Source: Naegleria gruberi (Eukaryota). From it: a DNA stretch of 64,000 bases. Both the position numbers and the translations under genes were made by a program. Shown piece after piece: positions 151 through 64,000 of this stretch; position 1 is the first letter of the stretch, and every line of letters begins with the position of its first letter. The notes under the pieces are model-generated. The model saw only the letters and a list, made by a program, of their open reading frames with translations, ran no database searches and was not told the origin of the DNA. The stretch lies in NCBI GenBank assembly GCA_000004985.1, contig GG738895.1. The stretch is one strand, 5' to 3'.

Positions 151-1704
151 TTAATTTTGTAATAATCCTTCCAAAATGGCAATGTAATGAACAATAGAAT
201 CCAAATACACATTTTCATCCAAATATTCGTTGTGGTCATGAAGCAAAACCTTGGTATTTGGCATGTAACTGTATCCGATCATGTTGACACCGGCAGCTCT
301 TGGGAACTAATAAAGAATTAATAAATATAATGCAAAATAACTTACTCTGGCATCAGTGGCAGCTGGGAAAATTCTCAATTCTGTCTTCATTCTTGAAGAG
401 ACAATATCTAAGAATTTCTTAACAGTTTCATCATTAAGATCAGCAACTGGATTGATCTTTGGTTGTTCAATAAACTTGATGGTACCATTAACAAAATCAG
501 CCCATGAACGAAGCATAATTTCAATTTCCTTCAAGTCAATATGTGGTGGAATTCTCATATCAAACAAGGCAGTAGCTGTTCTTGGAATAACATTAGGACT
601 AGAGAATTCTCCAGTTTCCTTGTTGGTATGTCCTGCTCTGAGACCTGTCAAATTGATAGTAATAACAGTACTACATTGTGTCTTTTCTCTTGGATTGTTG
701 GTTTGCAATCTCATTTGAACTTGTTGTTGTTCTCTGAATGGGAAAACCTTTTCATTGAGCAATTTGTAAATCTTTTCAGTGGCTGTTTGAGGAATGAATT
801 GAGAGCCGTGTCCAACATTACCTGTGGCAGTAATTTCAAACCAGTGAGCAACATTTTCACCATAATAAATTGGGATTATATCTTCATCCAATCCACTTGC
901 CAAACCTTCATCAATACCAAAACTAACATTCAATTCCTTCCACAATTCGTTTTGAATCAAACATTCCCATCCATCATCACCTCCAATTTCTTCATCAGCA
1001 ATAAAAACAACTTGAAGATTTCTCTCTGGTTTGAATCCAGATTCCACAAGAGCAACAAGAGCTTCCATGTAACCAGTTCCGATATTCTTCATATCTTGAG
1101 ATCCTCTCGAGTAAACTCTTCTGCCCTTTCCTGTATTTTCATCAACCATTGTTGCATCAAATGGTGGATACTTCCATTGATCCTTATCAACAGGAACTAC
1201 ATCAGTATGACTATTAATCATGATACTTCCCTTCGAAGCATCTCTTCCTTTCCATGTAAATATAAAACTTGGTTTAGCAGGATTGCAATGGAAAATATAA
1301 TACTTGAGAATGGAATTTTCTCCAGTCTTTAAATTAGCATTCACTTGCACTTCCTTGATCGGATCAGTACTATCATCAATATGGAAAACACTTCTTGTCC
1401 ATTTCAACAGAAAATCAATAGCAGTGGCATAATCAGGCTTTGGATGTTGAGTAGGTAATCTCAAATAGTCTTGGAATCGTTTCATGATATCATCACGAAG
1501 GCTTTGATCCGAGTAGATTTTACTCTTGTATTGATCGGCTAAAGTTGTTGTTGTTGTTGTTGGAATGTGGATATCTACAATGGGATCTGCATTAATTTGT
1601 TGTTGTTGTTGATCCGATCCAAATACAACATTGATGAACAATACACAACACAATACAATTATTAAAATTGATGGTGATGAATTGTAAAAATTAAATCTTT
1701 TCAT
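151..1704 (-). CDS. Aminoacylase-1-like metallopeptidase (peptidase M20 family), probably secreted; 2 exons (346..1704, 151..306)
   Basis: ORF 307..1704 (-) carries M20 motifs (SHTDVVPV, GSQDMKN, IADEEIGG) and a hydrophobic N-terminus. The frame is left at a GTAAGT donor (340..345). After a 39-nt intron (307..345, ending TTAG), exon 2 reads FPRAAGVNMIGYSYMPNTKVLLHDHNEYLDE...LLQN*, which matches the conserved ACY1 C-terminus. Confidence 0.85.
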
Positions 1705-2047
1705 TTTTTGTGGTTATATTATTTTTATTGATATAAATATTACAATCAATTGGGAAATGGAATATTCGATCATGTTTGAATAAAGAGGTATTGTATTTTA
1801 CATTAACATCGTAATAACCAAAAATTACTTAACCTGCTTGAAAGGATATGGATCTTTATTGGCAGGTCATTAGAATTCCAACAAAGTCTCAAATTGTAAA
1901 GCTTGTGGAAGAGATGATTTAAAGTAATTGAAATTTGTTTTGATGAAGACGGAATAACGAAATTTTTGCTTTAATGAACAAGAAATCAACAAGAAACGAA
2001 AAAGTTTGTCCTCTAGGTTGGGAATTCGGAAGTTTCGAATTAAAATA

Positions 2048-62382: not shown

Positions 62383-63092
62383 TTTTTCTTATGTAATTAT
62401 TGAAATTGGTTTGACAAGTGATGCCTCCACTGAAATCCCAACTCAACTGTAGTGTGTCATTATTCTTAATATTTTGAACATATTTCAAGCGCCAAAATCG
62501 AACCATTAAGCAATTAAAAAGTTCATCAACGCGCTAAGGAATCTTCGCAAACCGCAGATAAAAAATTATCCAAACACATTTTCTCTCAAATAAGGAATTT
62601 TTTCGAGTTTTTGCCAAACAAGTAGAGTTTGATTCAAGTTGGAAGTTGTGATAACCTGTAGTCTAACATTCATTTCCCGCATTTTTTCAACTCGACAGAA
62701 GAACAGTGTTGTTCCTTTCATGACTTTGTTACTCACACAATTTTCCTTCTGAAAAAGTTCAAATTATTAATGCTAGGAGTAACGACACTCAACCTAGATA
62801 ACAAATAACCTTCTCCTTTATATATTATCCAATATGCTCAATGACCTTTTTCCAAGCCAATATTGTTGTCGTTGGAAGATGAGACAAATACCAGTGCGCT
62901 TTGCGAAAAAGTCATCACACAGTGGTTTTGAAAATCGAATCTTTTTCCACTCACAAAAAAAACAACACAAACCCGAAAATACCACTTGGTTGCTTCATAC
63001 AATATTCATTGCTGCTGCTTCAGTTTTGTTGATATTTGAATCAATCACTCTTTGTTGTTTATTTTAATAACTATACTATTGTACTATAAACT

Positions 63093-64000
63093 ATGGCCCC
63101 TACAAAGGAAAATAATTGGGCAGGCGTTGATCCAAGCCTTCTCAACCAAAAAGATTACTTGTGGACCAAGACTGATGAACCTCATTGGAATAGAAAGAAG
63201 GAATTGTTGAAGAAGTATCCACAAATCAAGGAACTCTACAGTATTGATCCAATGACCAAGTGGAAGATTCTCCTCCTTGTTCTTATCCAATTTGCCACTT
63301 GTTATTATGTAGTAACTGCTAAACCTGCTTGGTACATTGTCCTTGCTTGTATGTGGGTTATTGGTGGTACTTGTAACACTAGTTTGACTGTTGGTATCCA
63401 CGAATTGACTCATGGTATGTTTGATCATTATTCTTTATTGTTAAATTTTAAAAATCATATGCATAATTATTCAATTTAATTATCTAATCTTTCAGGTGTT
63501 GGATTTGAAACTTTGGAATACAATTACATGATGGCAATTTTTGGTAACCTTCCACTTGCTGTTCCTTTTGCCATGTCCTTCAAACGTTACCATCATGAAC
63601 ACCACGTTTATCAAGGAGTTTTGGGTCTTGATACCGACATCGGAACCCCTATAGAAGCAAAATTCTTCAACACTCGTTACACTAAATTCCTCCACGTTCT
63701 CTTCATGGTCTTTTTCTATGCTTTGAGACCATTGTTCCTCCTCCCAAAAATTCCAAACAAGTGGGAATTAATTAACCAAGCTGTTATTTTCTCATTCGTC
63801 GGTGTTGTAACCTATTTCTTCGGTTGGATGTCTATCATCTATTTCTTGGGCTCTGACTTTTTCGGATTGGGTTTGCACCCATTGGCTGGTCACTTTATTT
63901 CTGAAGTAAGTTTTTCATCATGATGATAGTAATATTTACAACAATTATTAGCACTTTGTGACAAGACCAGGACAAGAAACATACAGTTATTATGGTATTG
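63093..64000 (+). CDS. Sphingolipid delta4-desaturase (DEGS/DES1 family), partial: 3 exons visible (63093..63414, 63496..63905, 63952..>64000)
   Basis: The Lipid_DES N-terminus reads DYLWTKTDEPHWNRKKELLKKYPQIKEL. The histidine boxes are HELTHG and HHEHH. Introns are 63415..63495 (GTATGT...TTCAG) and 63906..63951 (GTAAGT...ATTAG). Exon 3 reads HFVTRPGQETYSYYG and runs off the window. Confidence 0.85.

What the first reader, a model, noticed from the sequence alone, without database searches (positions are those of the whole stretch)
307..63951. Compact intron class (39-140 nt) with strong donor consensus; most genes intronless
I could place 15 coding introns by frame and homology, plus one probable 5'-UTR intron:
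- 307..345
- 4931..5070
- 11931..12020
- 12169..12266
- 16788..16863
- 17486..17532
- 21162..21206
- 22616..22677
- 26208..26254
- 51588..51664
- 56050..56104
- 59489..59530 (within the P450 relic)
- 62130..62216
- 63415..63495
- 63906..63951
- 42460..42541 (probable 5'-UTR intron)
Donors are GTAAGT, GTATGT, GTGAGT, GTAGGT and, once, GTTCGT. Acceptors are YAG, with one GAG. Several of these genes are mis-split or truncated in a plain ORF view. The bacterial-like genes (VOC, SppA, beta-helix, lyase-like) have none.
Basis: partly seen in the sequence, partly recalled or inferred. Interest (0 to 1): 0.3.

Follow-up and report, generated by a model that had tools for sequence, protein, structure and literature searches.

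The report
Ordinary short introns in Naegleria genes
The window is a piece of the already sequenced amoeba Naegleria gruberi, and the listed gaps are its normal short spliceosomal introns, most of them already in the public annotation, so the finding is correct but ordinary.

Summary
The window is nuclear DNA of Naegleria gruberi NEG-M, from a 333,733-bp GenBank scaffold. All 16 intervals start with GT and end with AG on the stated strand.

- **Three are conserved in a relative.** Introns 62130, 63415 and 63906 sit at the same codon and phase in a related Naegleria contig. Intron 62130 (GTTCGT donor) corrects a truncated GenBank model.
- **Two rest on homology.** Ungapped alignments cross the junctions at 26208 (tubulin-like) and 59489 (P450 haem motif).
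- **One rests on ORF logic only.** Intron 4931 joins a Met-less exon 2 to its single compatible donor.
- **The 5'-UTR intron is moderately supported.** Interval 42460 behaves as a GT..AG-bounded insertion against a related RPL28 contig.

One slip: acceptors are 13 YAG, one GAG and two AAG, not "YAG with one GAG". An in-frame CAG lies 21 nt downstream of the GAG acceptor.

Twelve of 42 gene models carry introns. Lengths run 39-140 nt, median 69.

Verdict: U2-type introns, already known, with minor annotation refinements. Low interest.

The parts
307..345 (-). Intron, 39 nt, GTAAGT..TAG, phase 0, in the M20 peptidase (aminoacylase-like) gene
   Evidence: The spliced 504-aa product is identical to XP_002672808.1. 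The Pfam Peptidase_M20 match 162-503 runs through the junction at aa 453 to the end of the profile. If retained, the intron ends in an in-frame TAG.
4931..5070 (+). Probable intron, 140 nt, GTGAGT..TAG, phase 1, joining a 21-codon first exon (ATG 4867) to an HSP20/CS-like exon 2
   Evidence: Exon 2 (124 codons) contains no Met. This is the only donor/acceptor pair that gives an ATG-initiated in-frame product. The ATG context is A-rich. Exon 2 coding score is 0.257, above every intergenic control; exon 1 scores 0.137, just above the control 95th percentile. The gene was not found in GenBank and there is no comparative data.
11931..12020 (+). Intron, 90 nt, GTAGGT..CAG, phase 0, in the Mpo1-like gene
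   Evidence: The spliced 216-aa product is identical to XP_002672739.1. The Pfam Mpo1-like match 24-183 spans both junctions.
12169..12266 (+). Intron, 98 nt, GTAAGT..CAG, phase 1, in the Mpo1-like gene
   Evidence: Same exact match to XP_002672739.1.
16788..16863 (+). Intron, 76 nt, GTATGT..CAG, phase 0, in the zinc alcohol dehydrogenase gene
   Evidence: The spliced 364-aa product (start 16572) is identical to XP_002672741.1. ADH_N 68-177 spans the junction.
17486..17532 (+). Intron, 47 nt, GTAAGT..TAG, phase 1, in the zinc alcohol dehydrogenase gene
   Evidence: Same exact match. ADH_zinc_N 223-345 spans the junction.
21162..21206 (+). Intron, 45 nt, GTAAGT..CAG, phase 2, in the sodium:neurotransmitter symporter gene
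   Evidence: The spliced 733-aa product is identical to XP_002672743.1. SNF 251-543 spans the junction.
22616..22677 (+). Intron, 62 nt, GTATGT..TAG, phase 1, in the rhodanese/sulfurtransferase gene
   Evidence: The spliced 302-aa product is identical to XP_002672744.1.
26208..26254 (-). Intron, 47 nt, GTAGGT..GAG, phase 0, in a divergent tubulin-like gene. An alternative in-frame CAG acceptor would give 26187..26254 (68 nt).
   Evidence: The Pfam Tubulin match 3-222 and a PDB alpha-tubulin alignment cross the junction; 'STFTVFPGAT' aligns to 'LQFSVYPAP'. The N. gruberi paralogue P0026 keeps 'SCFSIFP' at that place. Neither the 428-aa nor the 421-aa product is in the protein collection, so the GenBank model is unknown.
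42460..42541 (+). Probable 5'-UTR intron, 82 nt, GTAAGT..TAG, ending immediately before the RPL28 ATG (42542)
   Evidence: The RPL28 CDS is identical to XP_002672751.1. The related contig L004 has the leader motif GGTTGGCC..GAAAAAAAA colinear with window 42404-42459, then the ATG about 15 nt later, with no counterpart of the 82 nt. There is no RNA evidence.
51588..51664 (-). Intron, 77 nt, GTATGT..TAG, phase 0, in a lineage-specific secreted/coiled-coil protein gene
   Evidence: GenBank protein NAEGRDRAFT_59139 (674 aa) reads ...RVEFSK|GNMLDV... straight across this junction.
56050..56104 (-). Intron, 55 nt, GTGAGT..AAG (non-YAG acceptor), phase 1, in an F-box/LRR gene
   Evidence: The spliced 350-aa product is identical to XP_002672818.1. 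Sequence shown.
59489..59530 (-). Intron, 42 nt, GTAAGT..AAG, phase 0, inside the haem-binding loop of a frameshifted P450 relic
   Evidence: Splicing gives PFGVGARKCPG, which aligns without a gap to the P450 Cys-haem signature in PDB P450s. This is the only 3n intron without an in-frame stop. Upstream frame breaks at A-runs are visible.
62130..62216 (-). Intron, 87 nt, GTTCGT..CAG, phase 1, in a small multi-pass membrane protein gene
   Evidence: The relative L002 has exon 1 (70% aa identity), a 194-nt GTTAGT..TAG intron at the same codon and phase, then exon 2 starting at the same residue. The GenBank model XP_002672820.1 is exon-2-only, starting at Met 62082. That Met is absent in the relative, while the residues before it are conserved. 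Exon 1 coding score is 0.10, just above the highest same-length intergenic control (0.096).
63415..63495 (+). Intron, 81 nt, GTATGT..CAG, phase 1, in the sphingolipid delta-4 desaturase gene
   Evidence: FA_desaturase 79-257 spans the junction. The L002 orthologue has a 300-nt GTATGT..TAG intron at the same codon and phase.
63906..63951 (+). Intron, 46 nt, GTAAGT..TAG, phase 0, in the desaturase gene; the gene runs off the window end
   Evidence: The L002 orthologue has a 95-nt GTAAGT..CAG intron at the same position. The Pfam match spans the junction.
57690..57762 (+). Low confidence; other boundaries are possible.
   Evidence: The first 23 codons of the 481-aa ORF score as non-coding, -0.31. 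The 481-aa ORF is not a GenBank protein. Several GT..AG solutions exist, and none of the five tested variants is in the collection.

Best explanation
These are ordinary U2-type (GT-AG) spliceosomal introns of nuclear protein-coding genes of Naegleria gruberi NEG-M. Each is a short, AT-rich segment that starts with a U1-complementary GTRNGT-like donor and ends in AG. It is removed from the pre-mRNA so that the flanking exons form one reading frame. With 39-140 nt, the two ends are most likely paired across the intron (intron definition), as in other protists and fungi with short introns; that step is inferred, not shown. The gene set here is compact (about 78% CDS), and about 70% of the genes have no intron, in line with published statistics for this genome.
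For: Organism: exact identity of many window-encoded proteins with GenBank N. gruberi proteins from one 333,733-bp scaffold. GC is 33.7% against the published 33% (PMC8296547).

Per-intron support:
- Nine introns reproduce GenBank proteins exactly.
- Three are conserved in codon and phase in a related Naegleria contig, while the intron sequence and length differ: 87 vs 194, 81 vs 300, 46 vs 95 nt.
- Two give ungapped homology across the junction.
- Pfam domains run through 10 junctions in single stretches.

General signals:
- Donor positions +1, +2, +5 and +6 are invariant.
- Intron GC is 25% against 34.7% for CDS.
- Lengths modulo 3 are 6/3/6, and five of the six 3n introns carry in-frame stops.
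- Strong donor hexamers are enriched at ORF-joining positions compared with permuted motifs.
- They are rarer in sense CDS (11) than antisense (27).
Against: I could reach no RNA-level evidence (junction reads or ESTs). GenBank models are themselves largely computational.

- Intron 4931..5070 rests on ORF logic only.
- The 26208 acceptor (GAG) competes with an in-frame CAG 21 nt downstream.
- The UTR intron rests on a short, imperfect alignment.
- The window mean of 70 nt is well below the published genome mean of 203 bp. That mean probably includes long predicted introns.
Confidence: 0.93

Rival explanations
1. A minority of the listed intervals are chance GT..AG pairs rather than spliced introns. 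Candidates are 4931..5070, 42460..42541 and the exact 3' boundary of 26208..26254. Under this reading the true transcripts start downstream or use other sites.
For: Motif-only expectation: 70 strong donor hexamers in 128 kb of both strands. That predicts about two genes of 42 with such a donor within 100 nt upstream of the ATG by chance. The gene at 4867 has no match in the protein collection. A canonical pyrimidine-rich CAG acceptor lies 21 nt downstream of the GAG, in the same frame. The GenBank tubulin-like model equals neither variant.
Against: Exon 2 of the 4867 gene has strong coding potential but no Met, and only one compatible upstream donor. The related RPL28 contig lacks exactly the 82-nt segment. 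STFTVFP aligns to the conserved tubulin strand and to the paralogue's SCFSIFP.
Confidence: 0.2
2. The ORF breaks are frameshifts, assembly errors or pseudogene decay rather than introns.
For: One gene, the P450 relic, does show frame breaks at A-runs that no GT..AG interval explains.
Against: The breaks are 39-140-nt AT-rich inserts with invariant GT..AG ends, not 1-2-nt indels. Nine reproduce deposited proteins exactly. Three are conserved in position across species, with free divergence of the insert.
Confidence: 0.02
3. The 42-nt interval 59489..59530 is a retained in-frame coding insert of a dead gene and is no longer spliced, because the P450 gene is a relic.
For: It is 3n, has no in-frame stop and lies in a gene with two apparent frameshifts. 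Transcription and splicing of a pseudogene cannot be assumed.
Against: Removing it restores FGVGARKCPG, which aligns ungapped to the P450 haem signature. It begins with GTAAGT. So it was an intron when the gene was functional.
Confidence: 0.3
4. Some of these are minor-spliceosome (U12-type) or self-splicing introns.
For: None, beyond one odd donor (GTTCGT).
Against: No donor matches RTATCCTT. At 39-140 nt they are far too short for group I or II introns. Rfam finds only 5S rRNA and tRNAs in the window.
Confidence: 0.01

Closest known systems
Annotated gene models of the Naegleria gruberi NEG-M genome (GenBank ACER00000000; Fritz-Laylin et al. 2010, Cell 140:631)
   Same: Same DNA. Nine of the 15 coding introns give products identical to the deposited proteins. 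The intronless VOC, SppA, lyase-like, EPL1, GTPase and RPL28 ORFs are also identical. Published statistics of 33% GC and 1.7 exons per gene fit (PMC8296547).
   Different: The deposited model for the membrane protein at 61522..62382 lacks exon 1 and the 62130..62216 intron. The HSP20-like gene at 4867..5444 and the P450 relic were not found among deposited proteins. The tubulin-like, beta-helix and LRR (57696) models differ from the simple models built here. Window introns average 70 nt against the published mean of 203 bp.
Short introns of other Heterolobosea (Naegleria fowleri, Acrasis kona)
   Same: Very short GT-AG introns in compact genomes. N. fowleri has mean introns of 126-144 bp, and its RNA-seq was mapped with a 30-bp minimum intron (PMC8296547). 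A. kona has a predicted intron size range of 9-95 bp and about half of its genes with introns (PMC11589745).
   Different: Different species. Only the related contig L002 was compared directly. It shares three intron positions but has 2-4 times longer introns.
Intron-definition splicing of short introns in fission yeast and other fungi
   Same: Introns of about 40-150 nt, a GTAAGT/GTATGT-type donor, weak or absent polypyrimidine tract, few introns per gene. This is established knowledge, recalled from memory.
   Different: No CTAAC/CTRAY branch motif is consistently present here; six of 16 introns have no YTRAY at all. Three of 16 acceptors are AAG or GAG. The mechanism was not tested.

Membership tests
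U2-type (major) spliceosomal intron | GT at the 5' end and AG at the 3' end | tested here: met
   16 of 16 on the stated strand.
U2-type (major) spliceosomal intron | Extended 5' splice site complementary to U1 snRNA (GTRAGT-like) | tested here: met
   15 of 16 are GT[AG]NGT. One is GTTCGT, and its orthologue is GTTAGT. Positions +5 G and +6 T are invariant.
U2-type (major) spliceosomal intron | Removal restores one reading frame and a contiguous homologous protein | tested here: met
   Nine give exact GenBank products. Pfam or PDB alignments run across 12 junctions. The 4931 junction lies outside any domain. The 42460 interval is non-coding, and the junctions at 51588, 56050 and 62130 are confirmed by GenBank identity or synteny instead of by an alignment.
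U2-type (major) spliceosomal intron | Branch-point motif and pyrimidine tract upstream of the acceptor | tested here: inconclusive
   A YTRAY within 5-40 nt of the 3' end is present in 9 of 16, and six introns have none anywhere. The last 12 nt are T/A-rich rather than pyrimidine-rich. The Naegleria branch consensus is not known to me.
U2-type (major) spliceosomal intron | Excision seen at RNA level (junction reads, ESTs, cDNA) | not testable with these tools
   No N. gruberi transcript contigs were present in the protein clusters; cluster members were genomic ORF pieces. RNA-seq exists as PRJEB23822 (PMC6142364).
U2-type (major) spliceosomal intron | Position conserved in orthologues while the intron sequence diverges | tested here: met
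   Met for 62130, 63415 and 63906 against L002. Not testable for the others. L005 is nearly identical to the window and so uninformative.
U12-type (minor) spliceosomal intron | RTATCCTT donor and TCCTTAAC branch site | tested here: not met
   No donor or internal sequence matches.
Group I / group II self-splicing introns | Structured RNA of several hundred nt or more, recognisable by covariance models | tested here: not met
   Lengths are 39-140 nt. Rfam at gathering thresholds finds only 5S rRNA and six tRNAs.
Naegleria gruberi NEG-M nuclear genome | Encoded proteins identical to deposited N. gruberi proteins from a single scaffold | tested here: met
   Fifteen identical proteins, all from a 333,733-bp record.

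The most novel reading that the evidence does not exclude
Naegleria's very short introns may follow looser splice-site rules than gene predictors assume. In this window 3 of 16 acceptors are AAG or GAG. A GTT-type donor is conserved between two Naegleria species. These are also the cases where GenBank drops the intron (the membrane protein at 62382), where its model differs (the tubulin-like gene), or where a paralogue's model seems to read through a 42-nt intron. If this is general, a fraction of N. gruberi gene models would be systematically wrong at non-consensus short introns.
Probability: 0.3. Interest if true: 0.2.

Novelty: already known. Interest (0 to 1): 0.08.

Why it matters
It matters little beyond annotation quality. 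It shows that a sequence-only reader can recover Naegleria gene structures accurately. It also yields a few concrete corrections to the 2010 annotation: a missing first exon for NAEGRDRAFT_72155, an apparently unannotated HSP20-like gene, a P450 pseudogene and a likely 5'-UTR intron in RPL28. It opens no new biological question. Spliceosomal introns of this size and density are documented for N. gruberi and its relatives.

Tried and rejected
- **Gene-position index.** It does not hold the N. gruberi genome. Look-ups of window ORFs and of GenBank proteins found nothing, so annotated exon coordinates could not be read directly. I used exact protein look-ups instead.
- **Chimeric query.** A query of five uncertain products returned only the g08 protein. 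It missed proteins that are in the database (compare), so its negatives carry no weight.
- **Metagenome scan for the HSP20-like protein.** It found no relative.
- **Variant look-ups.** Variants of the tubulin-like gene (428, 421 and 239 aa) and five variants of the LRR gene at 57696 all missed. The GenBank forms of these genes stay unknown.
- **P0022.** This 1795-aa tandem-repeat translation matched the membrane protein across the junction, but it is a low-complexity artefact and I discarded it.
- **L005 and L001.** These are 97-99% identical environmental N. gruberi-like contigs. The intron region is identical, so they give no comparative signal.
- **Synteny in L002.** It ends after the membrane-protein gene. 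There is no orthologue of the P450 relic, GTPase, LRR or DLH genes there.
- **First ORF-joining control.** The thresholds were loose: 6-9% of all positions qualify. It supports enrichment only modestly.
- **Genome paper.** Fritz-Laylin et al. 2010 is not held in the library. Its figure of about 36% of genes with introns is from my memory.
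Full report
**What the window is.** The sequence is 33.7% GC, densely packed with ORFs on both strands, and dotted with six tRNA genes. Exact-sequence look-ups then showed that fifteen window-encoded proteins are identical to deposited N. gruberi NEG-M proteins. All come from one 333,733-bp record. The window is therefore nuclear DNA of a genome published in 2010. Published statistics for that genome are 41 Mb, 33% GC, 1.7 exons per gene and a mean intron of 203 bp (PMC8296547).

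**The observation.**
- The donors are as stated: GTAAGT x7, GTATGT x4, GTGAGT x2, GTAGGT x2, GTTCGT x1. G at +5 and T at +6 are invariant.
- The acceptor statement is slightly wrong. There are 13 YAG, one GAG (26208) and two AAG (56050 and 59489).
- Lengths are 39-140 nt, median 69.
- Introns are 25% GC against 34.7% for coding sequence.
- Coding-intron lengths fall 6/3/6 into the three residue classes modulo 3. Five of the six 3n introns carry in-frame stops. This is as expected for real introns.

**Introns identical to GenBank.** For each interval I removed the segment, extended the reading frame and compared the product with independent data. Nine introns give products identical, residue for residue, to GenBank proteins:
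- 307..345: XP_002672808.1
- 11931..12020 and 12169..12266: XP_002672739.1
- 16788..16863 and 17486..17532: XP_002672741.1, which starts at the second Met, 16572
- 21162..21206: XP_002672743.1
- 22616..22677: XP_002672744.1
- 56050..56104: XP_002672818.1, which uses the AAG acceptor
- 51588..51664: NAEGRDRAFT_59139, which reads straight across the junction

These rest. Pfam domains also run through ten junctions as single uninterrupted matches.

**Comparative evidence.** A full-library HMMER search with the spliced membrane protein found a 56-aa ORF that is 71% identical to its first exon. The contig that carries it, L002, comes from a related Naegleria-like organism with about 60-70% amino-acid identity. 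It holds the orthologues of both this gene and the neighbouring sphingolipid desaturase.
- **Membrane-protein gene.** L002 has exon 1, then a 194-nt GTTAGT..TAG intron at the same codon and phase as window 62130..62216, then exon 2 starting at the same residue.
- **GenBank correction.** The GenBank model XP_002672820.1 starts at an internal Met (62082) and lacks exon 1. That Met is not conserved in the relative, whereas the 16 residues before it are.
- **Desaturase gene.** Both of its introns (63415..63495 and 63906..63951) are at identical positions and phases in L002. There they are 300 and 95 nt long, with no sequence similarity to the window introns.

**Homology-only cases.**
- **Tubulin-like gene.** Splicing at 26208..26254 gives a product that aligns to alpha-tubulin without disruption; 'STFTVFPGAT' aligns to 'LQFSVYPAP'. 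An N. gruberi paralogue keeps 'SCFSIFP' at that place.
- **Alternative acceptor.** A pyrimidine-rich CAG lies 21 nt further on in the same frame. Using it would delete exactly those seven residues, so homology favours the GAG acceptor. Neither product is among deposited proteins, and only RNA data can settle it.
- **Paralogue read-through.** The paralogue's deposited protein has 14 extra residues, VSKYGHDIVDTMIK, exactly at the intron site. V-S and a final K are what an unspliced GTAAGT..AAG intron would encode. This is my inference only.
- **P450 relic.** Removing 59489..59530 yields PFGVGARKCPG, which aligns ungapped to the Cys-haem signature of solved P450s. The gene also has frame breaks at two A-runs upstream, so 'relic' is reasonable.

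**The two weakest items.**
- **Intron 4931..5070.** It joins a 21-codon first exon (ATG in an A-rich context) to a 124-codon exon with weak HSP20/CS similarity. That second exon has no Met at all. It scores clearly as coding: 0.257 against a maximum of -0.025 for intergenic controls. Only one donor/acceptor pair gives an ATG-initiated in-frame product. I found no deposited protein and no relative. I rate it probable, about 0.8.
- **5'-UTR intron 42460..42541.** It ends exactly at the RPL28 ATG, and the CDS is identical to XP_002672751.1. A 525-bp environmental contig with about 90% identical CDS (L004) has a leader, GGTTGGCC..GAAAAAAAA, colinear with window 42404-42459. Its ATG follows about 15 nt later, with no counterpart of the 82 nt. 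The segment therefore behaves as a GT..AG-bounded insertion. L004 is either an intron-less orthologue or transcript-derived. The motif alone would not be significant, because about two genes of 42 should have a strong donor within 100 nt upstream by chance. I rate this about 0.65.

**Chance controls.**
- The four strong donor hexamers occur 70 times on both strands: 14 start the proposed coding introns, one starts the UTR intron, 11 lie in sense CDS and 27 lie antisense to CDS.
- Using a deliberately loose ORF-joining criterion, 27% of real-motif occurrences qualify. For 179 position-permuted decoy motif sets the mean is 8% and the maximum 21.7%.

**Completeness.**
- My scans for further ORF-joining or short-first-exon introns found nothing convincing, with one exception.
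- The first 23 codons of the LRR gene at 57696 score as non-coding, -0.31, and the plain ORF is not a GenBank protein. Several GT..AG solutions exist, for example 57690..57762 with GTTGGT..TAG. None of those I tested is deposited.
- With 42 gene models, 12 carry introns and 30 do not, so 'most genes intronless' holds.
- The VOC, SppA and lyase-like genes are single ORFs identical to GenBank. The beta-helix gene is one 1133-aa ORF, but its deposited form differs.

**Mechanism and classification.**
- Shown: GT-AG ends, a U1-type donor, frame restoration and cross-species positional conservation.
- Not met: U12-type signals.
- Excluded: self-splicing introns, by size and by Rfam.
- Inferred: recognition across the intron (intron definition), from the short length.
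- Unresolved: the branch sites. Six of the 16 introns have no YTRAY motif at all.
- Not available to me: RNA-level proof. RNA-seq exists as PRJEB23822 (PMC6142364).

**Verdict.** The finding is a correct but ordinary description of known gene structure in a published genome. Its only added value is a handful of annotation refinements and a hint that non-consensus splice sites in very short Naegleria introns trip up gene predictors.

Noticed in passing
window 10080..10198 (-): A complete 5S rRNA gene (Rfam 105 bits) sits alone in the otherwise ORF-poor gap 9703..10824, next to tRNA-Ala (11303..11375). It is a dispersed chromosomal 5S copy.
   Followed up: no
window 11303, 31801, 39819, 45360, 52314, 57323: Six tRNA genes (Ala-TGC, Thr-AGT, Leu-CAA, Gly-GCC, Asn-GTT, Lys-CTT) are scattered singly between protein genes.
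   Followed up: no
window 61522..62382 (-): GenBank model XP_002672820.1 (186 aa) appears N-terminally truncated. A conserved 55-codon first exon and an 87-nt GTTCGT intron are missing from it. The relative has no Met at the annotated start.
   Followed up: yes
window 4867..5444 (+): A two-exon HSP20/CS-like gene (145 aa) seems to be absent from the deposited N. gruberi proteins. Only four UniProt accession slots lie between the flanking genes at 1704 and 11607, against seven ORF-level gene candidates there.
   Followed up: partly
window 59288..60320 (-): The P450 relic has its I-helix, ExxR, IPKGT and haem-loop segments in three different frames. The frame changes fall at A-runs (A8 near 59880 and A4 near 59690). 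This suggests a pseudogene, or less likely homopolymer errors.
   Followed up: partly
protein P0026 (N. gruberi 'alpha-tubulin', another scaffold): The deposited paralogue of the tubulin-like gene has 14 extra residues, VSKYGHDIVDTMIK, exactly at the intron position. This looks like a 42-nt GTAAGT..AAG intron read through by the gene model.
   Followed up: no
window 57665..57765 (+): The 5' end of the LRR gene (57696..59141) scores as non-coding for its first 23 codons, and the ORF is not a GenBank protein. An unlisted short intron or a different start is likely.
   Followed up: partly
window 26921..27832 (+) and 52502..53413 (-): An inverted pair of SPRY-like genes is 90% identical in protein and 94% in DNA over about 940 nt, 25 kb apart. 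This is a recent duplication. Two further paralogue pairs are present: DEAD-domain-only proteins (33612 and 45766, 49% identity) and F-box-Ras GTPases (34684 and 60321, 36%).
   Followed up: partly
window 33612..34388 (+) and 45766..46560 (-): Both DEAD-box paralogues end right after helicase domain 1, with no C-terminal helicase domain. Either this is a domain-1-only family or a second exon is missing. No downstream exon was seen.
   Followed up: no
whole window, both strands: Strong donor hexamers (GTAAGT, GTATGT, GTGAGT, GTAGGT) occur 11 times in sense CDS against 27 times antisense to CDS. The two sense GTAAGT cases overlap or adjoin stop codons. This is consistent with selection against cryptic donors.
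   Followed up: no
window 8914, 34503, 62736, 62954: Further strong donors lie on the sense strand upstream of start codons (ORF 9031, the F-box-Ras gene at 34684, the membrane-protein gene). They could mark more 5'-UTR introns, but their number is about what chance predicts.
   Followed up: no
L001 and L005 (ENA ERZ929261); L002 and L003 (ERZ2098899 / SRR29240419); L004 (ERZ4903137): Environmental assemblies hold 97-99% identical N. gruberi-like contigs and a more distant Naegleria relative. Prokaryotic gene callers split their genes at the introns, which makes them usable for intron-position comparisons.
   Followed up: partly
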